This document shows, piece after piece, positions 1,045 to 59,029 of a stretch of DNA of 64,000 nt (the first letter of the stretch is position 1; the number at the start of each line of letters is the position of its first letter). Position numbers and translations under genes: made by a program. The DNA lies in NCBI GenBank assembly GCA_002269645.1, contig NIVC01000991.1:1-64000 (forward strand), in the 5' to 3' direction. Below the pieces are notes generated by a model. It saw only the letters and a program-made list of their open reading frames with translations. It was not told the origin of the DNA and searched no databases. This DNA is from Macrostomum lignano (Eukaryota).

Positions 1045-1798
1045 TGTCGTAGGGCACTTTTATTATTTTCTAAATCCCACCGCTATCGCCAAATTTGTTG
1101 CAGGGATAATTAACTATTATAAACTATTCCACCGATGTCACCAAGTTGTTGTAGGGGGTTTGGCTATAATTCTAGAATTTCATTATATTAGCTTATTGGA
1201 TTCGTTATGAGCTACTAAAATACGGCGTAACTGAGGTAAGACTATGGCTTTCACGTAAGCACGGATTGCCCTGGTAGCGCGCAGTGCCCGAGCGGCAAGA
1301 CACTGTTCAGCTAGGGGAGAGGGGGAAAGACTAAGTCCTAAAGCAGCGTCCTCCAATGGATCGAGGTTGCCCGGTGAATTTCAATTTCCTCTTACGGATT
1401 TGCTCTTGTCAGGTACGACTTTCTCATTGGTTGTTCAATTCGAATATTACTAATGGGATATATCTCCCTTTTCTATTGGCTCTACGCCTCTGCTCTTTGC
1501 AGGTACGCAATTGGCTCTTAGACTACTCGTCTTTTTCTCTTGGTAATTTCTACCTTCTGTCCAATGAGCATTCGCTCTTAGTTTTCTAGCAAATGAAGGA
1601 AGGCTTGAAACACTTCTTCAATTTTATAGGCAATTCGCCTATGAACCAGAAGGTGTAAAACTTCGGTTGCCTCTCTGGGCACAAAATTCGCTTCTATTTA
1701 TACTAAAATTGGGGTGGGGAACAAGACGCGTTTAAACAAAGTTCTAAAAATATACGTTTCCATAGTAAAGGCGGGAATTTAAAACTTGGCCTCTCTCA
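1045..1798 (-). repeat. 3' LTR of copy 1 (754 bp)
   Basis: Matches 9779-10534 apart from two homopolymer-G indels I could see; minus-strand termini TGAGAG...CGACA. Confidence 0.95.
1353..1565. promoter_or_regulatory. Cluster of CCAAT/ATTGG boxes in the LTR (putative U3 enhancer)
   Basis: CCAAT at 1353 and 1561, ATTGG at 1426, 1475 and 1510, partly inside the direct repeat TGCTCTT(G/T)(T/G)CAGGTACG...ATTGG. Function is inferred. Confidence 0.45.
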
Positions 1799-2306: not shown

Positions 2307-3668
2307 TTAGTTCATATTAAACTCCTCTGGTAACCCACGCTCGTCCGTCCAGCCGAGAAGATCTCCCATCCAGCGTACTTCGATACGCAGGAGGATCCCG
2401 TAATACGGGTGGCCCGCCTGCTGAAGCGCGTGGAGAGTGTAGGCGACCGCTCGTCGCCATGCCGCAATTGCTTGCTCGGGCGTGTAGCTGCTCATCAACA
2501 TCTGTAGTACTGGCCGAATATGCGCCCGTTGCGGCAGAGCGCGGTCAAGACGCACGTTGGCAATTCGCATCAAATAAGCCTTGATGAGGGCTATCATTCG
2601 CTTAAAGTGCGCATGGCGGCCTTCGGGTATTTCAGCCAGAGCCCGGCTCAAGTTGGCACCGAAGTCATTGACATCAGCCGGGCGAGGGAACTGGCTCGAT
2701 TGTGGTTGAACTTGAAATTGCGCCTGGTTCGCGTCCATGCCGCAAGCAGCGTTTGATGATGGAGGCACCGTTAATATCGGCTGCGGTGGTTGCTGTGACT
2801 GTGGCGCTGGCGACGGCTGCTGCGGGGGCTGCTGCGACGGCTGCTGAGCTGGCGACGGCTGCTGTGAGTGCGGCGCTGGCGTCAGCTGCTGCGGGGGCTG
2901 CTGTGACAGCTGCTGAGCTGGCGGCAGCTGCTGTGTTGGCGCTGACTGCGGCGGACGACGCTGAGGGCGCTTCCGCGGAGCAGGCTGCCGCTGGCGGCTT
3001 GAGTGTGCTGTCGCCTGTGTCGGCTGTCGCTCTTGCAGCGGGGTCCGCGGCAGAATCCGCCGTACAGCCGGGCCGAGCCGCATCATTATAGTGGAGCGCG
3101 CCTCTGTTGGACGCCGAGCCATTGCCGTGGCGCTCGCCTCTGGTGCCTTCGCAGCCTGTCGCCGCAAAATAGCAGCCCGATTCTCAGCTGCCTGTGGCAC
3201 CGGAATCTTTGAAGGGGCTGCTCGCTTAGGCTGTGTGGGCGCTTGCACTGGCGAGCCGACCCTTTTTACGACAGATCGCAGCCGGCCTCCAGGCTTCGAT
3301 GGTTGCGTAGGCTGTCGCTCGGGCGCCTCCAGCTCTTGACCATCATTGATGGGCGGCCGCTTCGGGACCGTACTGCGATTGTCAACTTCTGCAGTTGCTG
3401 CCGTGGTGGCGCTCGTGCCAGCTGCCTCACTACTGCCAGTGTCGGCTGTTGCTTCCGTGTTTGCCATGCCGGCCGCTCTGCTGTCTATTTCGACTGTTGT
3501 GCTTGTCACTTCGACTGGTGCGTTAGCCATTTCGGCTGCTGCATTCGCCCTTTCGGCTGGTTCGTTGGCCCTATCGGCCGTAGTACTATCAAGTCCATCG
3601 AACGTATCAAATGGATCCTCAATATCGAGTAATTCTCTAAGCCACGAAAAATCCTCTTCTTCACTCAT
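2307..3668 (-). CDS. ORF3 of the LTR element: 453-aa protein of unknown function
   Basis: Open frame between pol and the 3' LTR on the element sense strand. Acidic/Ala-Thr N-terminus, basic middle, Q/P-rich linker and ~125-aa globular-looking C-terminus; no signal peptide or TM segment seen. Confidence 0.75.
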   Translation of the reverse strand: MSEEEDFSWLRELLDIEDPFDTFDGLDSTTADRANEPAERANAAAEMANAPVEVTSTTVEIDSRAAGMANTEATADTGSSEAAGTSATTAATAEVDNRSTVPKRPPINDGQELEAPERQPTQPSKPGGRLRSVVKRVGSPVQAPTQPKRAAPSKIPVPQAAENRAAILRRQAAKAPEASATAMARRPTEARSTIMMRLGPAVRRILPRTPLQERQPTQATAHSSRQRQPAPRKRPQRRPPQSAPTQQLPPAQQLSQQPPQQLTPAPHSQQPSPAQQPSQQPPQQPSPAPQSQQPPQPILTVPPSSNAACGMDANQAQFQVQPQSSQFPRPADVNDFGANLSRALAEIPEGRHAHFKRMIALIKAYLMRIANVRLDRALPQRAHIRPVLQMLMSSYTPEQAIAAWRRAVAYTLHALQQAGHPYYGILLRIEVRWMGDLLGWTDERGLPEEFNMN

Positions 3669-3733
3669 TGCTCTTCCGAAATTCTCGGTCTCTCTGGAAA
3701 TCTGTGGGGCTTCCGGGGCGTCAGGGGTCTTGC

Positions 3734-3828
3734 TTATATAAGCCTCTCCGGGGAGGGGTCCCGGGAGAGGGATCGTGGCCTCCGATTTGCTTAGACAAGC
3801 AAATTTCCAAATAACGCGCTCTCATTGG
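3734..3828 (-). promoter_or_regulatory. Putative internal promoter (CCAAT + TATATAA) upstream of ORF3
   Basis: Minus strand GAGCCAATGAG (CCAAT at 3824-3828) and TTATATAAG (3733-3741), ~70 nt before the ORF3 ATG, in the 246-nt gap after the pol stop. Confidence 0.45.
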
Positions 3829-3914: not shown

Positions 3915-6900
3915 TCAATAGGTCAGATTGGGCAATAGGCGCCACACTGTAATCAGCCTTTTCAGATAGCACGAGCATCTGTTCGGGGGCTTGATCTGAC
4001 TACGAGTGTTGTACCTCTTCTCGGGCCTAGCCGCCTCTTCGGTAATCTCGTTTGCCTCTTGCTCAGTTTCGAGCTCTTCTCTTTCTTCCTCTTGCATTGG
4101 CTCTGCTTCCTCTACCTCACTGCCTTCTTCCTCAAAGATCTCACTATCAGACTCACTTGATGCTTCATCCTCGCTTTCTCTTTCTGACTCTGAGTTATCA
4201 TTGTCTCGGAGATTGCATTGCCAATTCAGGCGGTCTTCATCTTCTGACTCTTCAACTTCTTCTATCTCTTCCCTCCGGGGGTGGCTTCCCTTAGCTTGTG
4301 CTTCTGCGGTGCCGCGCTGGCTTCCCTTAACTTTAGGCTCTCTCGTAGCTTTATCTGACTGACTGGCGGCAATCTCTTTAGCTGAATTTGGTACTACTGC
4401 TAAATTATCTCTATGCACTAACAGCTCCTTTCCTATTAACTTTCCTTCTTCCTCCTTCTGTACTTTAAATACTACCTCTGAGATCTGCTTTAATACTCGA
4501 TATGCTGATCTTCGCTGTCTATGGAATTTATGCGACTCCTCGTTATCTAGCTGCGGGTTATTAATAAGCACTAAACTTCCTAACGGTACTTCTTTTGGCT
4601 GTTTGCTAGTTTCAGCGGCGGTCTGTCTTTGGTTTATCACCTTCTCCAATTTCTCTTTTACGAGTTTCTGTGCGACAATTAGTCTTTCGGCATGTTCGGC
4701 AACATAGGATGGATAGCCTGCGTAGTGCTTTGGGTCCTTGATCTGATTGTCCATAGGTAACACAGCTTCCCTTCCAAATAACAGGAAATGGGGTGTGAAA
4801 CCTGTTGTCTGATTGACACTGGTTCGGACAGCAACTAGCGCAGCTGGAATCATCAGATCCCAGTTATTGTGGTCTTTCTTGATAAGGCAGGTAATAATAG
4901 ACTTTATCTGTTTATTGAACCTCTCTACCAAGCCGTTGCTCTGGGCATGATAGGGGGTAGTGAATGTCTGTTTGACATTATAGAGTTCACAGAAAGCCTT
5001 GAACTGTCTGCTGGAGAATGTTTTACCATTATCAGTATGAATCCAGTGGCACTGTCCGTACTCACTGAAGATTCTCTCCTGCAGGATTTTAATGACAGTG
5101 TCTGATTTCTGGTTGCGGATTGGGAAGGCAAAGGGGTATCGCGTGGTGCTATCAACCACTGTGAGCACATATCGATGCCCTCTTCTACTCTGCTTGGATA
5201 TTGGCCCGATTATGTCAATATGGAGGCGGTGAAATGGCTCGCTAATAGGGAAGGATTGGATGGGGGCTTGGACCTTATGTCCTCGTTTGCTTTCCAGGCA
5301 GGGTATACATTCAGAGATGTACTTCTCAACTGCCGTGGTCAGACCGGGTCTCCAAAATCTCTCGCGGACTTTTTGGATGGTCTTGTCTCTGCCTAAGTGT
5401 CCAGCTAGTGGGCTATCGTGGAGATCGCCAAGAACTAGTCTGTCTAATGACTCTGGCAAGACAACCTTCCATTTTTCGTCCTCTTTCACGATTAACAATT
5501 CGTTTTCGATTCTCATAGCCTCGTAGGCTTTGCACATTTGCTTTAGCAGCGGGGGGTCGGTTCTCTGGGGCACTGGGATTTCAACTTTCGCACATTTCCA
5601 TTGCACGAGGGTTCGGATCGAGGGGTCCTCTCTCTGGGCTTCAACGATTTGGTCACGCTTCAGGGGGACTGGGAGGTAGTCAGTCAAGAGCTTATCGACT
5701 CTTCGTACCTCGCTCTCTCGTTCGTGTCTGGACATTACAGAGATTTGGCTCGATTGCGCAAGGCTCAAGCTCAGTGGCTCCAAATTGTTATCCTGAACAC
5801 AATTACAAGGGGCAGAGGGCTGGGGGACTGAATGGCACGGGGGCTGGGCGGCTAAATGGTTCAGCGAGAGGGGGGTTGGGGCAGGGCAATCGGGTATTGA
5901 GTCCTCAACTGGCGGCTGGGCCTGGCTTGTACAGCTGTCCTCTGCCTTTGCCTTCTGACTCAGTTCGGCCAATTTGGCTCTGTTGGGGAAGGGAAATTCT
6001 GGGTTGGCATTATCGCCTTGAATCACCAATTCAGTGTTTGATTTATCACTCTGGCCTGTTTCGGCTGTCTCAGCGGGTCTCCTGGACAAGCTGTCCGCGT
6101 TGGTATGCTTGGCGCCACTTCTGTGTTCAATGTCAAATTGGAACTCAGTCAGGCGCTCAATCCAACGTCCTAAGATACCCTGGGCTTCAGTCTGCCGTAG
6201 CAACCAGAGGATTGCTTTATGGTCAGTTCGGGCAAGAAATCTTTTTCCGATCAAATAGAAACGAAAGTGTCTCATAGCGTCTACTAGTGCTAACAACTCT
6301 TTTCGAGTGATAGGGTAGCGCTTTTCCGACTCTTTCATTGCGCGGCTAAAATACGCAATAGGCCTTTCGATACCATCGGACTGGATCTGGCCTAAACAGG
6401 CCCCAATCCGTCCTTCACTGGCATCGGTATCCAGAACCATTTTGACATTTTCGTCATCTACGAATTCAGGATACGCAAGCACCTCTGTTGACATCATGCG
6501 CTGTTTTAATGATTCAAAAGCCTTATCATGCACATCTGTCCACTTTGCTGAGAAATTTTGCACTCCCTTTCGGGTGAGCTGAAACAGTGGATGCGCGGCT
6601 TCAGCATAGTTTTTCACGAATCGACTGTAATAATTACACAGTCCTAGAAAGCTGCGTAGCTCTTTCACCTCTTTCGGTTTGGGCCAGCTTTTGATCGCTT
6701 CGATCTTTGCTTCGTCAGTTCGAATACCATCTCTACCTATCACGTGGCCTAAATATTTTAGCTCTCTATGGAACAAATTGCACTTTTTCGCTCTAAGCTT
6801 TAATCCGGCATTGATTAGTCTCTGGAAAACTTCTTTCAAATGAGACAAATGGTCTTCGAACTGCTTTGAATAAGTGACAATATCGTCAATGTAGGACATA

Positions 6901-8726
6901 GCAAACTTGTGCTGAATTCCAGCAAGTACTAAGTTCATTAGCCTCTGAAAGGTACCGGGGGCATTGGATAATCCCTGTGCCATCACCTGGTACTCGAACT
7001 GTCCTCTAGTCAGGGTGGAGAAAGCTGTCATGAACTTATGTTCTTCCTTAATTGGGACCTGCCAATAGCCTGAGTTAAGATCGAGGCTGCTGAAGAATTG
7101 GCTTCCTGTGAGATTAGAGAAGGTTTCTTGGATGTTTGGGAGAGGGTAGGGGAAATAGTTCACTCGCGAGTTTAACACTCGGAAATCGCTGACAATGCGA
7201 ATGGTGCCATCTTTCTTTGGCACGATGACTAGTGGGGTGGAATAGGTGGAATAGCAGGGACGGATGAGATTTTTCGCTAGCATATCGTCTAGCTGGGCGT
7301 CAACCTGCTTTTGGAGATGGGGAGGAATTCGGCGGGTAGGGATTCTCACAGGGGTCTCGTCTTTCAAAGAAATTTCGTGGGTCACTAAATGAGTTAGCCC
7401 CATATCGAGGTCATTTTGAGAGAAAGCTTCTCGGTGTTCTTTTACTAATGCTACTACTGCTGCTCTCTGTTCAGTAGTCAATTCAGGACCAATGCTAATT
7501 TCACTCACCCACTCTTCTTCAGTGGCTTGAACTTGATTGACACGGGCTGAGTCTTGTACTTCTGCTGCTGCTTGCTGATCTGATGTCGGCGGCGGCAAAT
7601 AGAGCAGATCCTTGGCCTTCACGGGCTTAGCGAGCCCTACCAGTGCAGATTTGGGCAACTTGACTTCAACGGGGTGCCGATTCACAATTTCGACGACTGC
7701 GGTGCCCTGCTGCATGGTGACCAGAGTCGGGATCATTTCGATCGTTAGCTCTTTGGCTCTTACGCCATCTCCAATCGTTTCTATGGTCATTGGGGCGCCA
7801 TAGTTAGCTTCGGCATTTTTCGCCATTCTTACTGGAATGCGCAGTGCGCTGTTCGCAGGGATAGTTGCCTTTTCTTGAGTGTACACTCTGCAGACTCGTA
7901 CAGGCATGTGCGTGTACTGCATAGGTATACAGGCTCCTTCTTTCAGGATCAGCATCCCTTTTGTCAAGTGAATGCTTTCGCACTGCTCAAGAAAGAACTC
8001 CATTCCCAAAATGTTGTCACATTCGTGGCCACACAATAGGAATGTTATTTCAATTCGAATGTCTCCAAACTCAACAGCAACGGAAATTTCTCCTTCTAGC
8101 TGTACTGTGGCTCCGTCAAAAGTAGATACTCTTCTACTTGTACTTTTAATTTGCTCAGGCTTGAAAATTTTAGACCAGACTGACTTACTCAGGAAATTAT
8201 TGCTAGCTCCAGTATCTAGCAGGAAGTCAATCTCTTGGCGATTGATGTTGCCTACTACGATTGCTTCGTAGCTCTTGGGGCTGATTAGCTCGAGTTTGGC
8301 ATTGGCTGGAGTCTTCTTGGATTTGCGGCGGCGGTTTCGACGCGACTTCTTGGGCTTGACTGTCATCGGCGTGATGACTGAGGTCTCGGCGGCTGACACA
8401 TTGGGCGAAGTAAGCAATTGGGATGCTGCGGCGGCAGATGCGGGTGCTGCAGCAGCGGGTGCTGATACTGTAGACATAGATGATGCAGGCATAGTAGACG
8501 CAGTTGGTGCAGACATAGTGGACGCAGTTGGTGCATTTCGCATAGATACAGGGTGCATTTTCGCATTGGGTGCATAAGCATTTCGCTTGCGCCTTTTTAC
8601 AAGTTGCCATCCTCCGTTTGCTGTATCACAAGCGGGTTGGCGGGGATTTTGGGAGGCCTGCATTTCGCTTGGGGCTCTGCTTGAGGGACGTGGCCTCGAC
8701 TTCCGACCCTCGCCATTCAGTTTCCC
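3915..8726 (-). CDS. pol: Pol polyprotein (protease, RT, RNase H, integrase), entered by -1 frameshift from gag
   Basis: PR LLDTGAS; RT LDLNSGYWQV, QGLSNAP, YIDD; RH DTDAS, ELLAL, RTDH; IN zinc finger H..GH..C..C and catalytic HIDIIG, HTDNG, NGLVERFN. Frame is open from the slippery site at 8726 to the stop at 3915. Confidence 0.97.
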   Translation of the reverse strand, partial: GKLNGEGRKSRPRPSSRAPSEMQASQNPRQPACDTANGGWQLVKRRKRNAYAPNAKMHPVSMRNAPTASTMSAPTASTMPASSMSTVSAPAAAAPASAAAASQLLTSPNVSAAETSVITPMTVKPKKSRRNRRRKSKKTPANAKLELISPKSYEAIVVGNINRQEIDFLLDTGASNNFLSKSVWSKIFKPEQIKSTSRRVSTFDGATVQLEGEISVAVEFGDIRIEITFLLCGHECDNILGMEFFLEQCESIHLTKGMLILKEGACIPMQYTHMPVRVCRVYTQEKATIPANSALRIPVRMAKNAEANYGAPMTIETIGDGVRAKELTIEMIPTLVTMQQGTAVVEIVNRHPVEVKLPKSALVGLAKPVKAKDLLYLPPPTSDQQAAAEVQDSARVNQVQATEEEWVSEISIGPELTTEQRAAVVALVKEHREAFSQNDLDMGLTHLVTHEISLKDETPVRIPTRRIPPHLQKQVDAQLDDMLAKNLIRPCYSTYSTPLVIVPKKDGTIRIVSDFRVLNSRVNYFPYPLPNIQETFSNLTGSQFFSSLDLNSGYWQVPIKEEHKFMTAFSTLTRGQFEYQVMAQGLSNAPGTFQRLMNLVLAGIQHKFAMSYIDDIVTYSKQFEDHLSHLKEVFQRLINAGLKLRAKKCNLFHRELKYLGHVIGRDGIRTDEAKIEAIKSWPKPKEVKELRSFLGLCNYYSRFVKNYAEAAHPLFQLTRKGVQNFSAKWTDVHDKAFESLKQRMMSTEVLAYPEFVDDENVKMVLDTDASEGRIGACLGQIQSDGIERPIAYFSRAMKESEKRYPITRKELLALVDAMRHFRFYLIGKRFLARTDHKAILWLLRQTEAQGILGRWIERLTEFQFDIEHRSGAKHTNADSLSRRPAETAETGQSDKSNTELVIQGDNANPEFPFPNRAKLAELSQKAKAEDSCTSQAQPPVEDSIPDCPAPTPLSLNHLAAQPPCHSVPQPSAPCNCVQDNNLEPLSLSLAQSSQISVMSRHERESEVRRVDKLLTDYLPVPLKRDQIVEAQREDPSIRTLVQWKCAKVEIPVPQRTDPPLLKQMCKAYEAMRIENELLIVKEDEKWKVVLPESLDRLVLGDLHDSPLAGHLGRDKTIQKVRERFWRPGLTTAVEKYISECIPCLESKRGHKVQAPIQSFPISEPFHRLHIDIIGPISKQSRRGHRYVLTVVDSTTRYPFAFPIRNQKSDTVIKILQERIFSEYGQCHWIHTDNGKTFSSRQFKAFCELYNVKQTFTTPYHAQSNGLVERFNKQIKSIITCLIKKDHNNWDLMIPAALVAVRTSVNQTTGFTPHFLLFGREAVLPMDNQIKDPKHYAGYPSYVAEHAERLIVAQKLVKEKLEKVINQRQTAAETSKQPKEVPLGSLVLINNPQLDNEESHKFHRQRRSAYRVLKQISEVVFKVQKEEEGKLIGKELLVHRDNLAVVPNSAKEIAASQSDKATREPKVKGSQRGTAEAQAKGSHPRREEIEEVEESEDEDRLNWQCNLRDNDNSESERESEDEASSESDSEIFEEEGSEVEEAEPMQEEEREELETEQEANEITEEAARPEKRYNTRSQIKPPNRCSCYLKRLITVWRLLPNLTY

Positions 8727-9682
8727 TGATTCGGGTTTCTTGGCGGAAATCGGTGCTGGTTGGGTCTAGCCGATGGTGGCTGAGACTGCGCTTGGAACCT
8801 GGGGCGCTGGTTCATTAGCGGGGGTGGCTGTGGCTGATACGCCCTGGGCTGATATCGCACAGGCTGGGGCTGAGGAGCCATTTGCTGATAACGTACAGGC
8901 TGAGGCTGTACTACAGCAGGCTGATAGTGCATTGGCTGAGTAGCCATTGGCTGATACGCCTGCACCTTCTCTTTGCGGCTTTCTGCCTGTAGCTCCTGAA
9001 TGAGTTTTCGCTGCTTTTCCAGCTCCTCTTTCTGCTTCTTGACAATTTCTGTCAGACTCTCCTTCTCCCCTTCTTCATCTTTCATCACTCTTACTCCGTT
9101 CTTGTGAGACATGTGCCAAGCAGCTTCAATGCGCCTCAACATGCGCCTAGCTTCCTGCAAGCTAGCTGGCTGCGCAAAAATCAGTTTCTCCCTTGTATCT
9201 GAGGGGATTCTGACACCTTTTATGAATTGTTCTACCACCTCCTCTTCTCGTTGCTCGGCATTCATGTTTGGGAATGCTCGGCTTGACAGCTCTATCAGGG
9301 CATCCGCGAACATGTCGGTCGCCTCATTTCTTCCCTGCATCCTTCCCCTAAATTCTTCACGGAACTCGGAAGCACTTCCTAGCCTACCAAATCTTTCTAC
9401 AAGCCTATCCTTGAACTCCTCGTAGGTCAGCTCTTCTGGCAAATTCAATCGCTGAACTGCAGCGAAAGCAGTGGACAAGTCCAAATTAGCTACTAACTCA
9501 GTTTTCCTATTGGCTACGTCTATTCCTTCGGCGTCACATCGCTGATCAAAGGCTACCAGCCAGATTCGGATGTCTTGGCTGGGGGTATACTTCTGAATTT
9601 TAATATGTCTCATGGGCCCTAGTTCTAATCTATTCCTCAACTCTTCTGCTAATAGTCCAATAGCATCGTTGATTGCTGCCAT
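8717..9682 (-). CDS. gag: Gag-like protein (321 aa)
   Basis: First ORF after the PBS. Capsid-like helical core with MHR-like FRGRMQGRNEATDMFADAL, coiled coil and YQP-rich tail; no CCHC knuckle. Confidence 0.9.
   Translation of the reverse strand: MAAINDAIGLLAEELRNRLELGPMRHIKIQKYTPSQDIRIWLVAFDQRCDAEGIDVANRKTELVANLDLSTAFAAVQRLNLPEELTYEEFKDRLVERFGRLGSASEFREEFRGRMQGRNEATDMFADALIELSSRAFPNMNAEQREEEVVEQFIKGVRIPSDTREKLIFAQPASLQEARRMLRRIEAAWHMSHKNGVRVMKDEEGEKESLTEIVKKQKEELEKQRKLIQELQAESRKEKVQAYQPMATQPMHYQPAVVQPQPVRYQQMAPQPQPVRYQPRAYQPQPPPLMNQRPRFQAQSQPPSARPNQHRFPPRNPNQGN
8720..8726 (-). other. -1 ribosomal frameshift heptamer G GGA AAC
   Basis: In-frame X XXY YYZ immediately before the gag TGA. The -1 frame reads GKLNGEGRKSRPRPSSRAPSEMQAS into pol. 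Conserved in copy 2 (25925-25931). Confidence 0.85.
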
Positions 9683-9754: not shown

Positions 9755-9775
9755 GATCCCTTTCCGCTGCCACCA
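9755..9775 (-). other. Primer-binding site, tRNA-Leu-like (TGGTGGCAGCGG...GGGAT)
   Basis: 3 nt inside the 5' LTR boundary. The first 12 nt are complementary to the conserved metazoan tRNA-Leu(AAG/TAG) 3' end ...CCGCTGCCA-CCA (from recalled sequence). Confidence 0.85.
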
Positions 9776-9778
9776 AGT

Positions 9779-10534
9779 TGTCGTAGGGCACTTTTATTAT
9801 TTTCTAAATCCCACCGCTATCGCCAAATTTGTTGCAGGGATAATTAACTATTATAAACTATTCCACCGATGTCACCAAGTTGTTGTAGGGGGTTTGGCTA
9901 TAATTCTAGAATTTCATTATATTAGCTTATTGGATTCGTTATGAGCTACTAAAATACGGCGTAACTGAGGTAAGACTATGGGCTTTCACGTAAGCACGGA
10001 TTGCCCTGGTAGCGCGCAGTGCCCGAGCGGCAAGACACTGTTCAGCTAGGGGGAGAGGGGGAAAGACTAAGTCCTAAAGCAGCGTCCTCCAATGGATCGA
10101 GGTTGCCCGGTGAATTTCAATTTCCTCTTACGGATTTGCTCTTGTCAGGTACGACTTTCTCATTGGTTGTTCAATTCGAATATTACTAATGGGATATATC
10201 TCCCTTTTCTATTGGCTCTACGCCTCTGCTCTTTGCAGGTACGCAATTGGCTCTTAGACTACTCGTCTTTTTCTCTTGGTAATTTCTACCTTCTGTCCAA
10301 TGAGCATTCGCTCTTAGTTTTCTAGCAAATGAAGGAAGGCTTGAAACACTTCTTCAATTTTATAGGCAATTCGCCTATGAACCAGAAGGTGTAAAACTTC
10401 GGTTGCCTCTCTGGGCACAAAATTCGCTTCTATTTATACTAAAATTGGGGTGGGGAACAAGACGCGTTTAAACAAAGTTCTAAAAATATACGTTTCCATA
10501 GTAAAGGCGGGAATTTAAAACTTGGCCTCTCTCA
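9779..10534 (-). repeat. 5' LTR of copy 1 (756 bp), containing two extra PBS-like modules
   Basis: TG...CA termini; followed on the + strand by TSD AACT and macrosatellite sequence. Confidence 0.95.
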
Positions 10535-10896
10535 AACTCAACTAATATACTAGTAATTATATAGCTACAAGTATAGCCATATTGTTTAAAAAAATTGAAG
10601 TTGATTTGAGAAAATCTAAAAAAAAGCTTCTACTAAAACAAAAGATGAAATAATTCAATTAAGAATTTAAAAAATTAAGGATATCAAATTTATTTTTGTA
10701 AAAAAAGTTAATCATTATTATATTAAAATAAAGAACAAGCTAATAATATAACAACTAGCTAATCAGTGGAAACTTTAAGGGAGTGACACAGGACATGTAT
10801 AGTGTACCTTGTTAGGTTTAATTTTTTAAATGGAAAATGCATCATAAAATACATGTGCCTTGGTAATCTAAAAAAACAAATAATATAATATGTACC

Positions 10897-11076
10897 CAGT
10901 GGCGCAACCAGGGGGGGGCGGTCGCCCCCCCCCCTTAGGCGGGGGACCGAAAAAAAATCAAAGGGGGACCAAGCGAATTTTCGCCAAAAACAGAGCCACC
11001 CCTCCGCCGCCCCCCTCCCGGGACTTTACCCTCAGAATCCGCCCCCCCCCTTGAAAAATTTCTGGTTGCGCTACTG
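10897..11076. mobile_element. MITE, hAT-type (180 bp)
   Basis: TIRs CAGTGGCGCAACCAG / CTGGTTGCGCTACTG; perfect 8-bp TSD TATGTACC. Second copy at 14751-14940. Confidence 0.85.
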
Positions 11077-11708
11077 TATGTACCTTTTGTAATACCTTAG
11101 TTCTATATAGGTACAAACTAAAAGCAAATAATAAATTATATATAGTTACTTAATGGCCAATGATTCAATAAATTTAAATATCTTACGGTACTATAAATTA
11201 AAAACATTTTTTTCAAAGTTTATATAATTTATTATATAAATTAAAATATCTAACTAATTCAAGAAAAAAGCTTTTCAAATTTGTAATATAATAATGATAT
11301 TGGCCTTTAAAATGAAAATTATAAATGAATTAATTATGTTTTTTATAGATACCTAGTAAAAGTGGTACATAGTGGCCTATTTTTGTGATTAAGTCTATTC
11401 TTCTCAAATCTTAGGTCTAGTCTAAAATATAGGCCTCGCTTAAAAACTGATAATACAACTTTCTCAAGCCTAGGTAAAAAAACAATATGAAATTACACAT
11501 AGGAAATCTATATATTATGAAACTAAAGAATCATTGTCTAAATTTAATTACTTTTTAGCCTAGATAGATAGCCTAGATAGGTGATGGTCTAGTTCTAGGT
11601 GTAGCCAGAAATGGGTATAGCCAGGAATTTCCTATGGTCTGGGGGGATACAAAAGGTGAATTTTCTGTGGGGGATTCACCAAGGTAAAAGTGCTCACATG
11701 ATGCCGAC

Positions 11709-12156
11709 ATGGATGCTATGGACGGGCTTCCAGATAAAGTGAACAATATTACGCAGGAAGAACAAGCATCTTTGTATTACGTCTGCGGATATATTGCTTT
11801 CAAAGATAGCCTTGATTCTCCGTACGATGGGCCAAGCACCTACGATAATTCCTGCGAATTCGCATCAATGGTGTCGCGTGGCAGGCTAAAACATCCTCCA
11901 GAGTGGTTGCTACTTTTTTCCTTTTTTTGCTACTCGTTTTTTTGCCACACTAATTCCAGATGCGTCAATAACACAGCCAAAGCATTTGCTACAATCTATG
12001 ACGCGTTTTTTGATGTGCCAATTGAGACTGCTTTATTGCAACGCATCTCGAAGAGACTAACGAACATATTTTTTTAAGGGGCTCGTTAGACGAGACTCAG
12101 AGCCTCAGAGAGAAACGAGCTCCACCGCACGTCGGCTGCGCAAGTTGAATCCTTAA
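11709..12156 (+). pseudogene. C-terminal fragment of a P-element/THAP9-like transposase
   Basis: LYYVCGYIA...EFASMVSRGRLKHP...RLTNIFF(K)...RRLRKL resembles the P-family C-terminal YxxGY/SRGxLxxP pattern. Frameshifted in T-runs; N-terminal part absent. Confidence 0.6.
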
Positions 12157-12471
12157 CAGATTTTTTGGAGATTTTACAATCATTTTACAATTTGTTTTTT
12201 ATTTTCCAGTTTGCTGTTTGCTTTTTCAGCCTGAATCCTTTGCTCATAACGTTGCTCGTTGCTCATAACGCTATAATTTCTATATTCCCTTTTTTGTTTA
12301 CTATTTTCCCTTCTATCATAGTTTAAAGTTATACATGTACGCTTGCATTTTCAGCCCAAAAACCTTCATAAATTTATTTTTGTCTAACTTACATTTTTGT
12401 AATACTTCGGGTGTGTCATATTATTAAGTAGCTAATGTCAATGTCACTACCAGAGCAGATTCACTTGCCAT

Positions 12472-12606
12472 CAGTGGCGCAGCCAGGGGGGGCCCGGGCC
12501 CCCGAAATTTACCCCCCCCCATTCGGAGAAAAAATTCTAACCCCCCTCCTCTGGGTGTTAAATGCTCCACCCCCCCCCCCCGAAATAATGTCTGGCTGCG
12601 CCACTG
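12472..12606. mobile_element. MITE (135 bp), related termini to the 10897 MITE
   Basis: Perfect 15-bp TIRs CAGTGGCGCAGCCAG / CTGGCTGCGCCACTG; TSD degraded. Second copy at 16335-16467. Confidence 0.75.
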
Positions 12607-14750
12607 CTCATCACCATCCAGCCAGAAAATCCGAAACCACCTTACAGTTAGTTGTGCGACCGTGCATTGTCTATCTGCCACAGAAGCTCGTCCAGGTGAA
12701 TCGTGAATTGTGGACCTGATTAGAGCGTGCGACTTGTCGAGATTCATGGTGATTTTTGTTCGCTGCGTAGACGAGTTTTCAACGCGTATGCGTTGCGCTG
12801 GCTATAGCTATCGGCTTAACGAATTATTGCCGTAGGTTGGGCCATAAACATCCAATGCATGTCTCGATTGCACTGGTATCGATTCACTATCACTAAGAAA
12901 CTTTGCAGCTGCTCTACATGCACGCGAACACCCGACACACCCAAAATAATGACACACCCGAAATAACTCACCCGCATTTGATGTAGAGATACATTCTGAA
13001 AAAATAATGTTGGTCTTCCACAGAAAATATCGAGCGCTTGATATTGTCTGGTCTTCCAGTTTTGTCTAAATAAGCTCTTTATTATTGGTGCACATTGTTC
13101 TGTAACTGTTTACTGCATTCATTTAAGCAAGTTTTCTACAAGCTAAAGTACTTTTGTGCTGCTTGATAATTGCAATGCCAGGACCAAAACTTCAAAGGCA
13201 TGGTCAAGAGAAAAGGAATCAGAGCGCCACAATACGCTCACCGAAAAATGTTTGCAGCAATTAGAGCACAATTTGCATAACGTTAATGTATAAGATTCTT
13301 AAGATTTCTAGACCTATACTGCTAGAGTTTACTAAAACTTTTATAGCACATCGTACCATATCAGATAGTCTAGGATGAAAAATTCCTGATAACTGAGCTA
13401 GCTACTAGTTGAGCCGCAATCGATTTCGATAATCGGCCTCCAAAACTCTCCATCATTTTCAGTGACCTCCAAGTCAAAACTGTTGACTACGCACTCAGTA
13501 TTTAGCTGTCAGTTTACTGCATACATTTATATACTATACAAAACTGCATTTTATTTACTCAATGTTTCTCTTGTATTTGCCTGTTATGAGCTGAGCATTT
13601 TACCAGCCTTTATTACTTATATTTTCGGCATAGCGCATCTTTGTGCTGGGTTTCATTTTTGTGCATATGAAAAGAAGTGTTTAAGAAACAATTATATTTT
13701 TTATATAATATCAGTATGTATACAGAATATATCTATTCATTTCTTTTTTAATACTTTTTAATACACATAATATATATTATAATCAGCAAAAATTCCTTGC
13801 AAGTAAAATTATGAAAAGTTCACATTGTACAGGAGAGAAAAAAAGTTTTGTCTGTTAATTTTACTCAAATAAAAGTGAAGTTCTTCACTTTGGGAGTTAA
13901 TCAATATGAAAGACAATGCCAGCAAAAATGAAAACTGTACCAATGAGTGTGGAGAGCCAGTGTCAGCCAGCAAGCAGTTGAATAACCGCAGTCACATCTT
14001 GAAGCAGTGCACAATAGATCAGCATCAATGCTTGATGTTGTCTGGTTAGCAGCCAGAGCATAGCCATCTTTTGTATGTTGACAGCCAAACCAATTGCTGC
14101 CACAAAAGCAACCAGCCTGCCTAGCTTCCTAGGGACAAGTGGGCTGGACATAGAACACCTTGCCAGTCATTAGGTTGGACAAATATGAAGCATTGGCCAA
14201 TACAAAGCATGGTAGATAGGCTTAGAAGGTAGATAAGAGACCAGGAAAGTAGTTCAGGCTTGTTGCTAGTGGCTGGAAGAAAGAAATATTAAAAGGTGAA
14301 CTACTCAGGTTTAATGTAAAAATGGATGCTGGTCAAAGATATACAAAAGTTATTTAAAATTATATAAGGCATTAAATATATTTGGCAACTCAACTAATAT
14401 ACTAGTAATTATATAGCTACAAGTATAGCCATATTGTTTAAAAAAATTGAAGTTGATTTGAGAAAATCTAAAAAAAAAAGCTTCTACTAAAACAAAAGAT
14501 GAAATAATTCAATTAAGAATTTAAAAAATTAAGGATATCAAATTTATTTTTGTAAAAAAAGTTAATCATTATTATATTAAAATAAAGAACAAGCTAATAA
14601 TATAACAACTAGCTAATCAGTGGAAACTTTAAGGGAGTGACACAGGACATGTATAGTGTACCTTGTTAGGTTTAATTTTTTAAATGGAAAATGCATCATA
14701 AAATACATGTGCCTTGGTAATCTAAAAAAACAAATAATATAATATGTACC

Positions 14751-14940
14751 CAGTGGCGCAACCAGGGGGGGGCGGGGGGGGCGGTCGCCCCCCCCCCTTA
14801 GGCGGGGGACCGAAAAAAAATCAAAGGGGGGACCAAGCGAATTTTCGCCAAAAACAGAGCCACCCCTCCGCCGCCCCCCCTCCCGGGACTTTACCCTCAG
14901 AATCCGCCCCCCCCTTGAAAAATTTCTGGTTGCGCTACTG
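14751..14940. mobile_element. MITE, hAT-type (copy in second unit)
   Basis: Same TIRs and TATGTACC TSD as 10897-11076. Confidence 0.85.
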
Positions 14941-15572
14941 TATGTACCTTTTGTAATACCTTAGTTCTATATAGGTACAAACTAAAAGCAAATAATAAAT
15001 TATATATAGTTACTTAATGGCCAATGATTCAATAAATTTAAATATCTTACGGTACTATAAATTAAAAACATTTTTTTCAAAGTTTATATAATTTATTATA
15101 TAAATTAAAATATCTAACTAATTCAAGAAAAAAGCTTTCAAATTTGTAATATAATAATGATATTGGCCTTTAAAATGAAAATTATAAATGAATTAATTAT
15201 GTTTTTTATAGATACCTAGTAAAAGTGGTACATAGTGGCCTATTTTTGTGATTAAGTCTATTCTTCTCAAATCTTAGGTCTAGTCTAAAATATAGGCCTC
15301 GCTTAAAAACTGATAATACAACTTTCTCAAGCCTAGGTAAAAAAACAATATGAAATTACACATAGGAAATCTATATATTATGAAACTAAAGAATCATTGT
15401 CTAAATTTAATTACTTTTTAGCCTAGATAGATAGCCTAGATAGGTGATGGTCTAGTTCTAGGTGTAGCCAGAAATGGGTATAGCCAGGAATTTCCTATGG
15501 TCTGGGGGGATACAAAAGGTGAATTTTCTGTGGGGGGATTCACCAAGGTAAAAGTGCTCACATGATGCCGAC

Positions 15573-16019
15573 ATGGATGCTATGGACGGGCTTCCAGATA
15601 AAGTGAACAATATTACGCAGGAAGAACAAGCATCTTTGTATTACGTCTGCGGATATATTGCTTTCAAAGATAGCCTTGATTCTCCGTACGATGGGCCAAG
15701 CACCTACGATAATTCCTGCGAATTCGCATCAATGGTGTCGCGTGGCAGGCTAAAACATCCTCCAGAGTGGTTGCTACTTTTTTCCTTTTTTGCTACTCGT
15801 TTTTTTGCCACACTAATTCCAGATGCGTCAATAACACAGCCAAAGCATTTGCTACAATCTATGACGCGTTTTTTGATGTGCCAATTGAGACTGCTTTATT
15901 GCAACGCATCTCGAAGAGACTAACGAACATATTTTTTTAAGGGGCTCGTTAGACGAGACTCAGAGCCTCAGAGAGAAACGAGCTCCACCGCACGTCGGCT
16001 GCGCAAGTTGAATCCTTAA
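15573..16019 (+). pseudogene. P-like transposase C-terminal fragment (copy in second unit)
   Basis: Same sequence as 11709-12156 with different T-run indels. Confidence 0.6.
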
Positions 16020-16334
16020 CAGATTTTTTGGAGATTTTACAATCATTTTACAATTTGTTTTTTATTTTCCAGTTTGCTGTTTGCTTTTTCAGCCTGAATC
16101 CTTTGCTCATAACGTTGCTCGTTGCTCATAACGCTATAATTTCTATATTCCCTTTTTTGTTTACTATTTTCCCTTCTATCATAGTTTAAAGTTATACATG
16201 TACGCTTGCATTTTCAGCCCAAAAACCTTCATAAATTTATTTTTGTCTAACTTACATTTTTGTAATACTTCGGGTGTGTCATATTATTAAGTAGCTAATG
16301 TCAATGTCACTACCAGAGCAGATTCACTTGCCAT

Positions 16335-16467
16335 CAGTGGCGCAGCCAGGGGGGGCCCGGGCCCCCGAAATTTACCCCCCCCCATTCGGAGAAAAAATTC
16401 TAAACCCCCTCCTCTGGGTGTTAAATGCTCCACCCCCCCCCCGAAATAATGTCTGGCTGCGCCACTG
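16335..16467. mobile_element. MITE (copy in second unit)
   Basis: Same 15-bp TIRs as 12472-12606. Confidence 0.75.
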
Positions 16468-18251
16468 CTCATCACCATCCAGCCAGAAAATCCGAAACCA
16501 CCTTACAGTTAGTTGTGCGACCGTGCATTGTCTATCTGCCACAGAAGCTCGTCCAGGTGAATCGTGAATTGTGGACCTGATTAGAGCGTGCGACTTGTCG
16601 AGATTCATGGTGATTTTTGTTCGCTGCGTAGACGAGTTTTCAACGCGTATGCGTTGCGCTGGCTATAGCTATCGGCTTAACGAATTATTGCCGTAGGTTG
16701 GGCCATAAACATCCAATGCATGTCTCGATTGCACTGGTATCGATTCACTATCACTAAGAAACTTTGCAGCTGCTCTACATGCACGCGAACACCCGACACA
16801 CCCAAAATAATGACACACCCGAAATAACTCACCCGCATTTGATGTAGAGATACATTCTGAAAAAATAATGTTGGTCTTCCACAGAAAATATCGAGCGCTT
16901 GATATTGTCTGGTCTTCCAGTTTTGTCTAAATAAGCTCTTTATTATTGGTGCACATTGTTCTGTAACTGTTTACTGCATTCATTTAAGCAAGTTTTCTAC
17001 AAGCTAAAGTACTTTTGTGCTGCTTGATAATTGCAATGCCAGGACCAAAACTTCAAAGGCATGGTCAAGAGAAAAGGAATCAGAGCGCCACAATACGCTC
17101 ACCGAAAAATGTTTGCAGCAATTAGAGCACAATTTGCATAACGTTAATGTATAAGATTCTTAAGATTTCTAGACCTATACTGCTAGAGTTTACTAAAACT
17201 TTTATAGCACATCGTACCATATCAGATAGTCTAGGATGAAAAATTCCTGATAACTGAGCTAGCTACTAGTTGAGCCGCAATCGATTTCGATAATCGGCCT
17301 CCAAAACTCTCCATCATTTTCAGTGACCTCCAAGTCAAAACTGTTGACTACGCACTCAGTATTTAGCTGTCAGTTTACTGCATACATTTATATACTATAC
17401 AAAACTGCATTTTATTTACTCAATGTTTCTCTTGTATTTGCCTGTTATGAGCTGAGCATTTTACCAGCCTTTATTACTTATATTTTCGGCATAGCGCATC
17501 TTTGTGCTGGGTTTCATTTTTGTGCATATGAAAAGAAGTGTTTAAGAAACAATTATATTTTTTATATAATATCAGTATGTATACAGAATATATCTATTCA
17601 TTTCTTTTTTAATACTTTTTAATACACATAATATATATTATAATCAGCAAAAATTCCTTGCAAGTAAAATTATGAAAAGTTCACATTGTACAGGAGAGAA
17701 AAAAAGTTTTGTCTGTTAATTTTACTCAAATAAAAGTGAAGTTCTTCACTTTGGGAGTTAATCAATATGAAAGACAATGCCAGCAAAAATGAAAACTGTA
17801 CCAATGAGTGTGGAGAGCCAGTGTCAGCCAGCAAGCAGTTGAATAACCGCAGTCACATCTTGAAGCAGTGCACAATAGATCAGCATCAATGCTTGATGTT
17901 GTCTGGTTAGCAGCCAGAGCATAGCCATCTTTTGTATGTTGACAGCCAAACCAATTGCTGCCACAAAAGCAACCAGCCTGCCTAGCTTCCTAGGGACAAG
18001 TGGGCTGGACATAGAACACCTTGCCAGTCATTAGGTTGGACAAATATGAAGCATTGGCCAATACAAAGCATGGTAGATAGGCTTAGAAGGTAGATAAGAG
18101 ACCAGGAAAGTAGTTCAGGCTTGTTGCTAGTGGCTGGAAGAAAGAAATATTAAAAGGTGAACTACTCAGGTTTAATGTAAAAATGGATGCTGGTCAAAGA
18201 TATACAAAAGTTATTTAAAATTATATAAGGCATTAAATATATTTGGCAACT

Positions 18252-19005
18252 TGTCGTAGGGCACTTTTATTATTTTCTAAATCCCACCGCTATCGCCAAA
18301 TTTGTTGCAGGGATAATTAACTATTATAAACTATTCCACCGATGTCACCAAGTTGTTGTAGGGGTTTGGCTATAATTCTAGAATTTCATTATATTAGCTT
18401 ATTGGATTCGTTATGAGCTACTAAAATACGGCGTAACTGAGGTAAGACTATGGGCTTTCACGTAAGCACGGATTGCCCTGGTAGCGCGCAGTGCCCGAGC
18501 GGCAAGACACTGTTCAGCTAGGGGAGAGGGGGAAAGACTAAGTCCTAAAGCAGCGTCCTCCAATGGATCGAGGTTGCCCGGTGAATTTCAATTTCCTCTT
18601 ACGGATTTGCTCTTGTCAGGTACGACTTTCTCATTGGTTGTTCAATTCGAATATTACTAATGGGATATATCTCCCTTTTCTATTGGCTCTACGCCTCTGC
18701 TCTTTGCAGGTACGCAATTGGCTCTTAGACTACTCGTCTTTTTCTCTTGGTAATTTCTACCTTCTGTCCAATGAGCATTCGCTCTTAGTTTTCTAGCAAA
18801 TGAAGGAAGGCTTGAAACACTTCTTCAATTTTATAGGCAATTCGCCTATGAACCAGAAGGTGTAAAACTTCGGTTGCCTCTCTGGGCACAAAATTCGCTT
18901 CTATTTATACTAAAATTGGGGTGGGGAACAAGACGCGTTTAAACAAAGTTCTAAAAATATACGTTTCCATAGTAAAGGCGGGAATTTAAAACTTGGCCTC
19001 TCTCA
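18252..19005 (-). repeat. 3' LTR of copy 2
   Basis: Matches the copy 1 LTRs except for G-run length. Confidence 0.93.
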
Positions 19006-19513
19006 ACTGGCTTCCCTAAGGATAATTTTCGAATGGTAAAAAAAATAAAAAGTGAGAAAATTATTCTATTTGATACAATGAGTAGTCTATAACGCACGCC
19101 TAACAAAAAATGCAACATAATGTGAGTATTAATGGAATATAAAAGCGCGAAATTAGGTGCACAGAAAATGTGACAGTCATAAACTAAATACGGAAAGTGT
19201 GAACTAAATATGGATGCACGCACAAAGTTCAAACAGTTATGGTGAATAAAACGGTGTAGATGATAAAACAAATGTGAAGTGGTTTTAATGAGTAAGCAAA
19301 AACACAAAGTTAGACAGTAGTAATTAGATAAGCAATTTTATAGATAGCACAATAAAAAAATGGAGCACAAATGCCAGCAAATATATGAATAAGCAGAAGG
19401 CTACGCAATTTTATTAAAGGATGAACGCACACTACTAATTTGTAAAATTTTTACGATAAATTGCAGAGGCAGAATTATATTGCAAATGTTAATATTTGGC
19501 AAAGTCACCTGTA

Positions 19514-20874: not shown

Positions 20875-21119
20875 TGCTCTTCCGAAATTCTCGGTCTCTC
20901 TGGAAATCTGTGGGGCTTCCGGGGCGTCAGGGGTCTTGCTTATATAAGCCTCTCCGGGGAGGGGTCCCGGAGAGGGATCGTGGCCTCCGATTTGCTTAGA
21001 CAAGCAAATTTCCAAATAACGCGCTCTCATTGGCTCTCCGCACTCAATTCCTTTCTTCCAATGGGATTGCTTCCTCACGCCTTCGCGCCTGTGCGCGCCT
21101 TCCTTCTGCTTCCCGTCTC

Positions 21120-26887: not shown

Positions 26888-26983
26888 GGCTTCCGAGTCT
26901 ATAATTTCTCTTTGTCAATTCGACTTTTTCAGCAATATCGGGTCTTTTCACCGGATCTCGATCCCTTTCCGCTGCCACCAAGT

Positions 26984-27740
26984 TGTCGTAGGGCACTTTT
27001 ATTATTTTTTAAATCCCACCGCTATCGCCAAATTTGTTGCAGGGGTAATTAACTATTATAAACTATTCCACCAATGTCACCAAGTTGTTGTAGGGGGTTT
27101 GGCTATAATTCTAGAATTTTATTATATTAGCTTGTTAAATTCGTTATGAGCTACTAAAATACGGCGTAACTGAGGTAAGATTATGGGCTTTCACGTAAGC
27201 ACGGATTGCCCTGGTAGCGCGCAGTGCCCGAGCGGCAAGACACTGTTTAGCTAGGAAAAAGGGGGGGGGTGACTAAGTCCTCTAGCAGCGTTCTCCAATG
27301 GATCGAGTTTGCCCGGTGAATTTCAGTTTCCTCTTACGGATTTGCTTTTGTCATTTACGACTTTCCATTGGTTGTTCAGTTCGAACAGTTTATTTGGATA
27401 TTTCTCCTCTTTCTATTGGCTGATTACGCCTCTGCTCTTTGCTAGTACGCTATTGGCTCTTCGACAATTCGTCTCTTGCTCTTGGTAATTTCTACCTCTA
27501 GTCCAATGAGCATTCGCTCTTAGTTTTTAGCAAATGAAGGAAGGTTTGGAACGCTTCTTCAATTTTATAGGCAATTCGCCTATGAACCAAAAGATCTAAA
27601 AACTTCGGTTGCCTCTCTGGGCACAAAATTCGCTTCTATTTATACTAAAATTGGGGTGGGGAACAAGACGCGTTTAAACAAAGTTCTAAAAATATACGTT
27701 TCCATAGTAAAGGCGGGAATTTAAAACTTGGCCTCTCTCA
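26984..27740 (-). repeat. 5' LTR of copy 2 (diverged variant, 757 bp)
   Basis: TG...CA termini, PBS at ~26960-26980, many substitutions relative to the other three LTRs. Confidence 0.93.
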
Positions 27741-58970: not shown

Positions 58971-59029
58971 CTGAAAAGTGATGGAGGAATAATGCTCTGG
59001 GCTCTGCCGAAATAAAATAAAATATTTGA

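What the first reader, a model, noticed from the sequence alone, without database searches (positions are those of the whole stretch)
9755..9890. Stacked array of three 'LTR-end + primer-binding site' modules, each matching a different tRNA 3' end
Seen: on the element strand three ~51-nt modules follow each other. (a) CCCTACAACA-ACT-TGGTGACATCGGTGGAAT (PBS at +9860-9877); (b) CCCTGCAACA-AATT-TGGCGATAGCGGTGGGAT (+9808-9825); (c) CCCTACGACA-ACT-TGGTGGCAGCGGAAAGGGAT (true LTR end at 9779 plus the positional PBS). The att-like decamer and TGG start are conserved, while the linkers between modules are unrelated AT-rich sequence. Modules a and b lie INSIDE the LTR, so they occur in all four LTRs (e.g. 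1074-1091, 1126-1143). Read as tRNA, a and b fit 3'-end geometry exactly: AT|TCCAC|CGATGTC|A|CCA and AT|CCCAC|CGCTATC|G|CCA (T-loop|T-stem|acceptor|discriminator|CCA). Established: c resembles tRNA-Leu(AAG/TAG); A73 is Leu-like and G73 is Ser-like; LTR elements normally carry one PBS outside the LTR; 3' tRNA fragments can repress LTR elements via the PBS. Inference: this is either a fossil record of successive primer switches (each new att+PBS added downstream, the old one absorbed into U5), a multi-primer system giving LTRs of three lengths, or decoy/sponge sites for tRNA fragments. I do not know a described example of this layout.
Basis: partly seen in the sequence, partly recalled or inferred. 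Interest (0 to 1): 0.88.

Follow-up and report, generated by a model that had tools for sequence, protein, structure and literature searches.

The report
Self-renewing primer-site arrays in retrotransposon ends
A lineage of jumping genes in this animal stacks one to seven short units, each an integration end plus a weakened landing site for one and the same leucine tRNA, at the end of its terminal repeats, and footprints in related copies suggest that the inner sites are likely used and rewritten during reverse transcription, which would make the array grow and reshuffle itself.

Summary
The stack is real; the 'three different tRNAs' reading is not. All three sites are variants of the site for host tRNA-Leu(AAG/TAG), and no tRNA gene was found for a or b.

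The window shows one state of a variable array. Related Ty3/Gypsy copies carry 1-7 modules in changing number and order, and three lineages that share only 54-58% RT identity all have such arrays.

The inner sites carry footprints of use:
- Some hold an exact 18-nt tRNA copy patched onto an unchanged linker.
- Exact modules are mostly last in the array (7 of 10).
- Divergence rises upstream.
- One insertion has a 3' LTR that ends at an inner integration end with an intact target-site duplication, and an exact tRNA copy at that same junction on the 5' side.

Best model: occasional internal priming plus plus-strand transfer adds, deletes and shuffles modules. Why the array is kept remains open. 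Three marine-metagenome contigs, with no DNA likeness to the fetched loci beyond the junction, show the same layout, and this scan noted similar stacks in other genomes. Ten literature searches found no description.

The parts
9779..10534 (-). 5' LTR of element 1 (756 nt, TG...CA), with the two-module array at its 3' end
   Evidence: 99.7% identical to the 3' LTR; target-site duplication AGTT
9881..9890 (-). att-like end of the LTR core, first junction of the array
9830..9880 (-). module a: 3-nt spacer, weakened tRNA-Leu site (9860-9877), A/T-rich linker, att (9830-9839)
   Evidence: predicted duplex with the tRNA-Leu 3' end -20.3 kcal/mol against -39.0 for an exact site; this module type is last, followed by a target-site duplication, in solo LTRs L018, L019, L020
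9779..9829 (-). module b: 4-nt spacer, weakened tRNA-Leu site (9808-9825), linker, att that is the true LTR end (9779-9788)
   Evidence: duplex -26.1 kcal/mol
9756..9775 (-). terminal primer-binding site: 12 nt exact to tRNA-Leu(AAG/TAG), a family-specific A-rich bulge, then the last 5 nt of the 18-mer
   Evidence: duplex -32.4 kcal/mol
8717..9682 (-). gag ORF
   Evidence: nearest named relative is a Macrostomum lignano protein, 72% identity
3915..8765 (-). pol ORF, order protease - RT - RNase H - integrase (Ty3/Gypsy)
   Evidence: Pfam scan
2307..3821 (-). third ORF, Pro/Gln-rich, no known family
   Evidence: no Pfam hit, no usable atlas hit
1045..1798 (-). 3' LTR of element 1 with the same modules a and b, preceded by a short purine tract (1799-1810)
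26961..27740 (-). 5' LTR, array and terminal primer site of element 2
18252..19005 (-). 3' LTR of element 2 with modules a and b

Best explanation
The stack is a variable array of 'integration end + weakened tRNA-Leu primer site + linker' units at the 3' end of the LTR of a Ty3/Gypsy lineage, and it is likely maintained and reshuffled by reverse transcription itself. Shown: one tRNA for all sites; 1-7 modules in changing order; exact 18-nt tRNA patches; a young-to-old gradient from the terminal site upstream; and LTR pairs that differ by whole modules yet keep their target-site duplication. Inferred: tRNA-Leu primes mostly at the strong terminal site but sometimes at an inner one. The plus-strand strong-stop DNA, which ends in an 18-nt copy of the tRNA, then lands on that inner site and overwrites it. 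Within one RNA this gives a shorter LTR with the leftover modules outside it, and these rejoin both LTRs in the next cycle. Between two co-packaged RNAs it would append the partner's modules to the 3' end of the array. Mismatches at site positions 5-6 likely keep inner priming rare. Each module keeps a usable att because any module can become the last one.
For: One tRNA. Variable number and order within the window's family and 1-7 modules in 65 parsed arrays. Patches: 18 of 26 contexts that follow an exact 18-mer have a sister with an inexact site and at least 21 of 26 identical bases downstream, 7 of them 26 of 26; none of the 26 continues with the tRNA's next four bases; 0 of 138 units carry the terminal-type bulge, so they were not copied from the usual terminal site. 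Polarity: distance from the exact site rises upstream (rho 0.37, p 3e-7, copies not independent); the exact module is last in 7 of 10 hand-checked arrays against 3.06 expected (p 0.009). Caught in the act: L122/L188 has a 3' LTR 51 nt shorter that ends at an inner att with duplication AATA, an exact 18-mer at that junction on the 5' side, and the family's bulged terminal site behind it; its sibling L130/L190 carries that exact module in both LTRs. The terminal site binds tRNA best (-32.4 against a module median of -19.7 kcal/mol), and 35 of 56 module types pair only 4-5 nt from the tRNA 3' end, which fits 32 of 35 informative elements being symmetric. Depth: three array-bearing lineages form one clade (100/100) at 54-58% RT identity. 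Retroviruses copy the primer tRNA into the plus strand, and ERV sites revert to the perfect form (PMC7472051, passages).
Against: Only one clean inner-priming product was found. Two other asymmetric elements have the longer array in the 3' LTR (L132/L191, L159/L208); inner priming does not produce this, and it needs early strand transfer, two templates, or deletion after insertion. LTRs with no module are nearly absent in the window's family (1 unchecked hit), so the first site is seldom used. Ty1 and Ty3 do not inherit the tRNA copy (PMC5371799, passages), so the model needs this lineage to differ. The G-to-A excess in the sites (32:3 in the 3' block against 27:11 in the middle, p 0.037) also fits a plain AT mutation bias. 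Module exchange between families is only suggestive (best pair 84% against a shuffled-linker ceiling of 74%). The R/U5 border is unmapped and no cDNA data exist here.
Confidence: 0.62

Rival explanations
1. Neutral tandem repeat: one duplication of the LTR end plus primer site, then unequal crossing-over or slippage at the shared 10-14-nt junction in chromosomal DNA changes number and order. The modules do nothing.
For: Adjacent identical modules occur (L018, L089/L116, L238). The two cases with a longer 3' array fit deletion after insertion. Tandem TRIM arrays are ascribed to recombination (PMC4528315, passages). Substitutions are mostly G-to-A and C-to-T.
Against: It cannot make clean 18-nt tRNA patches while 0 of 138 units carry the terminal bulge, nor the L122/L188 layout. 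Conservation is uneven along the site (position 6 changed in 18 of 27, position 9 in 6 of 27, p 0.002). Arrays occur in three lineages at 54-58% RT identity.
Confidence: 0.15
2. Decoys for 3' tRNA fragments: the modules keep the fragment's seed match and the CCA-end match with a mismatched centre, like non-cleavable target mimics, and soak up tRF-Leu, while the terminal site breaks the seed match. This could be the reason for keeping the array and is compatible with the best model.
For: The 3' 8-mer is conserved (mean 5.9 of 8 against 3.9 in shuffles). The terminal site is inexact in 40 of 50 junctions although overwriting happens, which suggests selection against the perfect site. The same trade-off is described for mouse ERVs (PMC7472051, passages).
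Against: G-to-A changes in the seed region would give A-C mismatches with the fragment. The second lineage has mostly exact sites in modules and at the terminal position. A decoy does not need an att in every unit. There are no small-RNA data.
Confidence: 0.12
3. Auxiliary tRNA contacts: the modules help load or package tRNA-Leu, or pair with its T-arm while the 3' end sits on the terminal site, like the bipartite sites of Ty1 and Ty3.
For: The terminal site is exact for 11-12 nt and then bulged, while modules best keep the T-stem-complementary part. Bipartite sites exist in Ty1 and Ty3 (PMC5371799, passages).
Against: It does not explain the att in each unit, the exact patches or the variable number. 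The L159 5' LTR has no module. Modules do not form self-hairpins (mean z -0.08; 4 of 56 below -2).
Confidence: 0.08
4. One reading: each module matches a different tRNA and records past primer switches.
For: Sites a and b are 18 nt long with TGG start and AT end. The host tRNA set could not be listed in full (63 of about 62,000 candidates scored; 30 of 71 T-arm loci read).
Against: No tRNA gene was found for a or b. There are 75 unit types at under 85% identity (67 kept), and among the 56 with a recognisable core the sites are 14-21 nt long and centre on the Leu sequence. All overwrites seen are to Leu.
Confidence: 0.03

Closest known systems
Ty3/Gypsy (Ty3/Mdg4) LTR retrotransposons of animals, including those of Macrostomum lignano (PMC12801592, passages)
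   Same: gag-pol layout PR-RT-RH-IN, TG...CA LTRs, 4-bp duplication, tRNA primer site 3 nt behind the 5' LTR
   Different: One to seven extra att + primer-site units inside the LTR. That paper's main text has no occurrence of 'primer binding', 'tRNA' or 'tandem'; its supplements were not examined. The clade (Mag, CsRN1, Gmr1/Osvaldo) was not assigned here.
Retroviral and ERV primer sites that revert to the tRNA sequence and carry tolerated mismatches (Cullen and Schorn 2020, PMC7472051, passages)
   Same: Imperfect common site, scattered perfect revertants ascribed to copying of the primer tRNA
   Different: There it is one site outside the LTR; here the overwriting also hits several sites inside the LTR and marks where the array changed.
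Engineered retroviral vectors with two primer-binding sites (Voronin and Pathak 2004; title seen only in a reference list; paper not held)
   Same: By its title, initiation at both sites is frequent
   Different: Laboratory constructs; here a natural, heritable, variable array in which each site has its own integration end.
Tandem TRIM and Cassandra arrays with multiple LTRs (Wukong, PMC4528315, passages)
   Same: Repeated LTR end + primer site units, variable copy number, one target-site duplication around the whole
   Different: TRIM units repeat a whole LTR with PBS and PPT in non-coding elements and are ascribed to chromosomal recombination; here the unit has only about 10 nt of LTR end, sits inside both LTRs of coding elements, and units differ from each other.
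Bipartite primer sites of yeast Ty1 and Ty3 (PMC5371799, passages)
   Same: Short exact site plus further tRNA-complementary stretches
   Different: Those are parts of one site and the tRNA copy is not inherited; here whole sites are repeated and exact tRNA copies are inherited.

Membership tests
Ty3/Gypsy LTR retrotransposon | pol order protease, RT, RNase H, integrase | tested here: met
Ty3/Gypsy LTR retrotransposon | direct LTRs with TG...CA ends and a short target-site duplication | tested here: met
   756-nt LTRs, AGTT in element 1; 4-bp duplication in 27 of 32 symmetric elements
Ty3/Gypsy LTR retrotransposon | tRNA primer site just behind the 5' LTR and purine tract before the 3' LTR | tested here: met
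   12-nt exact match to host tRNA-Leu; short purine tract at 1799-1810
Ty3/Gypsy LTR retrotransposon | a single primer site, outside the LTR | tested here: not met
   1-7 further sites inside the LTR. This is the usual layout, not the taxonomic criterion, so it marks the variant.
named animal Gypsy clades (Mag, CsRN1, Gmr1/Osvaldo) | RT phylogeny with named reference elements | not tested
   the tree held no clade references
   host tRNA list incomplete
tandem TRIM array | whole LTR repeated between primer sites | tested here: not met
   units are 38-66 nt with an att of about 10 nt
tandem TRIM array | non-coding element | tested here: not met
   open gag and pol ORFs
retrovirus-type inheritance of the primer copy | 18-nt tRNA copy replaces the site in progeny | tested here: inconclusive
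   genomic footprints fit; no cDNA seen
tRF target mimic | binding of Argonaute-loaded 3' tRF without cleavage | not testable with these tools
   no small-RNA data
Ty1/Ty3 bipartite primer site | one tRNA pairs with two separated RNA segments | not testable with these tools
   only pairing energies computed

The most novel reading that the evidence does not exclude
LTR retrotransposons in several animals carry a polarised, self-updating cassette array. Each cassette is a selfish cis-unit that captures the tRNA-copy end of plus-strand strong-stop DNA, so new cassettes enter at the primer-proximal end stamped with the tRNA sequence and then drift to a form that is poor for priming and for tRNA-fragment attack. 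The array would serve as a built-in backup of primer sites and integration ends and as a recombination switchboard between co-packaged elements, leaving a readable record of reverse-transcription events.
Probability: 0.3. Interest if true: 0.85.

Novelty: new variant of a known kind. Interest (0 to 1): 0.72.

Why it matters
Textbook LTR elements have one primer site, outside the LTR, and two identical LTRs. This lineage breaks both rules in a regular way and has kept doing so over deep divergence. The arrays make two old questions testable from genome sequence alone. One is whether Gypsy elements inherit the tRNA copy (yeast Ty3 does not; these appear to, at a countable rate). The other is whether imperfect primer sites are selected against tRNA fragments, since one lineage keeps imperfect sites despite overwriting while its sister keeps perfect ones. 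Practically, such arrays will mislead tools that call LTR ends and primer sites, and LTR-pair dating.

Tried and rejected
Different tRNAs for a and b: rejected.

Module self-hairpins: not supported (mean z -0.08), so no covariation test was run.

Intron-like units, a lead from earlier scan notes: by inspection there is no AG at the place where excision would regenerate the junction; not tested further.

Conversion from the terminal site: 0 of 138 units carry its bulge.

Selection for G-T wobble in the DNA heteroduplex: weak (p 0.037) and confounded by AT bias and by the choice of best window.

Cross-family module exchange: suggestive only.

Searches that gave nothing usable:
- Rfam: no family in the window.
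- Viral contigs: no gag relative.
- Sequencing runs: no RNA holder listed; contigs cannot show RNA ends, so R/U5 stays unmapped.
- No 3' LTR partner for L244 or L238 in the stretches fetched; no pol in L282 or L283.

Corrections and dropped rows:
- The automatic polarity count (9 of 11) misparsed L129 and counted L170/L171 twice; the corrected count is 7 of 10.
- Dropped: 5 satellite-like or non-array loci before parsing; 8 of 75 unit types without an att pattern; 11 of 67 with a 3' core score under 5; 12 of 50 elements with no 3' LTR in the fetched stretch; 3 of 38 whose partner was another element or a tandem copy.

Full report
Observation. They belong to a Ty3/Gypsy element on the minus strand: 5' LTR 9779-10534, gag 8717-9682, pol 3915-8765 with protease, RT, RNase H and integrase in that order, a third ORF of no known family, and 3' LTR 1045-1798, with the 4-bp duplication AGTT. 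A second copy spans 18252-27740. The nearest named proteins are from the flatworm Macrostomum lignano (gag 72%, RT region 60%). The own genome G000 has 764 Mb. Contigs from four public runs of four studies lie on the stretch, so it is not an assembly artefact.

One tRNA, not three. A T-arm pattern gave 71 places, of which 30 were read. The only intron-less tRNA genes ARAGORN called on the pattern were Leu(AAG) and Leu(TAG), five loci, which share one 3' end. Site c matches it for 12 nt, has an A-rich bulge, and regains the last 5 nt. A pattern for tRNA genes ending like a or b gave 4 exact and 154 one-mismatch hits. Of the 100 listed I fetched 20, including all 4 exact ones. ARAGORN called none, and the exact ones are primer-site modules of another LTR family read backwards. 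The Rfam tRNA search scored only 63 candidates, so the host set is incomplete. Module a would also need U at position 61, where C is invariant (recalled). Predicted duplexes with the Leu 3' end are -39.0 (exact), -32.4 (c), -26.1 (b) and -20.3 (a) kcal/mol.

The stack is one state of a variable array. In the window's family, 30 of 52 matches were read: copies carry one to four modules in different orders, with adjacent duplicates. Solo LTRs with 1, 2, 3 and 4 modules have intact duplications, and module a is the last unit in three of them. A pattern for LTR ends with no module gave one unchecked hit. Genome-wide, the tandem junction pattern has 349 hits against 33 in the reversed control. From 173 loci I parsed 138 distinct units, 75 types at under 85% identity, of which 67 had an att pattern and 56 a recognisable 3' core. 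65 of 71 arrays parsed fully, with 1-7 modules. The 3' 8-mer of the Leu site is kept (5.9 of 8 against 3.9 in shuffles), while positions 5, 6 and 11 are usually changed, so 35 of 56 types pair only 4-5 nt from the tRNA 3' end. The units do not fold on themselves.

Footprints of reverse transcription. First, exact 18-nt Leu sites occur as clean patches. 18 of 26 downstream contexts have a sister with an inexact site and at least 21 of 26 identical following bases, 7 of them 26 of 26. None continues with the tRNA's next four bases, and none of 138 units has the terminal bulge. The terminal site itself is exact in 10 of 50 junctions, three of which share flanks; that search required the first 11 nt. 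Second, the array is polar. Distance from the exact site rises from 3.2 at the last module to 4.7-4.9 upstream (rho 0.37; copies are related), and the exact module is last in 7 of 10 hand-checked arrays against 3.06 expected (p 0.009). Third, of 50 elements 35 gave an informative LTR pair: 32 are symmetric (27 with a 4-bp duplication) and 3 differ by whole modules with the duplication intact. In L122/L188 the 3' LTR ends one module early, and the 5' side has the exact 18-mer at that junction, then the leftover linker, att and the family's bulged site. This is the product expected from priming or plus-strand transfer at an inner module. Its sibling L130/L190 has that exact module in both LTRs, as expected one cycle later. 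L132/L191 and L159/L208 show the reverse, one and three more modules at the 3' end, which needs another route.

How far it reaches. Among 60 places read from the 185 exact-site hits, a second lineage appears with another att, a 1-nt spacer and mostly exact sites in one to three modules, and a third with yet another att; Leu-primed families without modules also exist. The second lineage's junction pattern has 269 hits against 0. An RT-RNase H tree of 39 rows puts the three lineages in one clade (100/100), at 54-58% identity to the window's RT. The outgroups were only database hits from other sources, with no other families from this genome. One scan of metagenome contigs gave 3 stretches from one marine assembly, with no DNA likeness to the fetched G000 loci beyond the 29-nt junction. 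They carry two to five att + Leu-site units; one is bracketed by a 4-bp duplication, and one has diverged upstream and exact downstream sites. No gag or pol was seen in these stretches. Earlier notes of this scan report similar stacks in other genomes; I did not check them.

Mechanism. Retroviruses copy the primer tRNA into the plus strand, and ERV sites revert to the perfect form, while Ty1 and Ty3 inherit their own site (PMC7472051 and PMC5371799, passages). Strand transfer between co-packaged RNAs makes mosaic LTRs (PMC6894440, passages). The stop after 18 nt at methylated A58 is recalled. From these and the footprints I infer that tRNA-Leu primes mostly at the strong terminal site and rarely inside, and that the tRNA copy lands on the inner site. 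This shortens the LTR, or with two RNAs appends modules at the 3' end (confidence 0.62). Why the array persists is less clear: backup sites and a self-propagating unit follow from the model, while tRNA-fragment decoy and auxiliary tRNA contacts are untested additions. Against the model: there is one clean case only, two opposite asymmetries, weak evidence for exchange between families, an unmapped R/U5 border and no cDNA data.

Novelty. Ten full-text searches (multiple, tandem, duplicated or repeated PBS; PBS-like repeats in U5; Macrostomum LTR elements; tRF decoys; dual initiation; tandem TRIMs) found no natural element with this layout. I saw passages of PMC3212995 (a copia cluster whose copies have one or other of two sites), PMC7472051, PMC5371799, PMC6894440, PMC12801592, PMC3601003, PMC13524379 and PMC4528315, the reference-list title of Voronin and Pathak 2004 in PMC4227088, and only search listings for the rest. 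No supplements were read. Subscription journals and Repbase entries are not covered and could hold a description.

Verdict: a real, deeply conserved and dynamic new variant of the LTR end; interest 0.72.

Noticed in passing
window 10535-14390 and 14387-18251: A 3.86-kb host unit is tandemly duplicated between the two elements. Element 2 is chimeric: its 5' LTR and flank match the copy on contig C1817 (L004), its 3' LTR and flank match element 1 (92% between its own LTRs, no duplication). This is recombination or an assembly join.
   Followed up: partly
window 2307-3821 (-): Third ORF behind pol, Pro/Gln/Ala-rich with a short C-terminal domain; no Pfam or atlas match. It is in two frames in element 2.
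   Followed up: partly
L222-L279 (e.g. L278/L279, L280): Second array-bearing Gypsy lineage with mostly exact Leu sites, a 1-nt spacer and units of about 60-90 nt; many solo or 3' LTRs.
   Followed up: partly
L244, L242, L281: Third lineage with a C-rich att and one module whose site starts differently from the terminal Leu(AAG/TAG) site.
   Followed up: partly
L284-L287, L297-L300: Primer sites whose match to tRNA-Leu runs to about 22 nt, into the T-loop, rather than 18.
   Followed up: no
L305:1325-1690 (minus strand numbering, approximate): Marine-metagenome element made of a 48-nt near-palindromic start plus five modules, bracketed by a 4-bp duplication; the linkers are themselves palindromic.
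   Followed up: partly
L011, L019, L020, L028: A subfamily of the window's LTR with a different 5' start; L020 appears to have a 5-bp duplication.
   Followed up: no
L100-L109: Weak tRNA-like repeats in many copies, possibly a tRNA-derived SINE family.
   Followed up: no
window 48500-55300 and 57700-64000: A 21-nt satellite of about 305 copies and purine-rich simple repeats with strong strand skew.
   Followed up: no
window 36264-37901 (-) and 57693-59717 (-): Single-ORF host genes: a sugar/MFS transporter and a galactosyltransferase.
   Followed up: no
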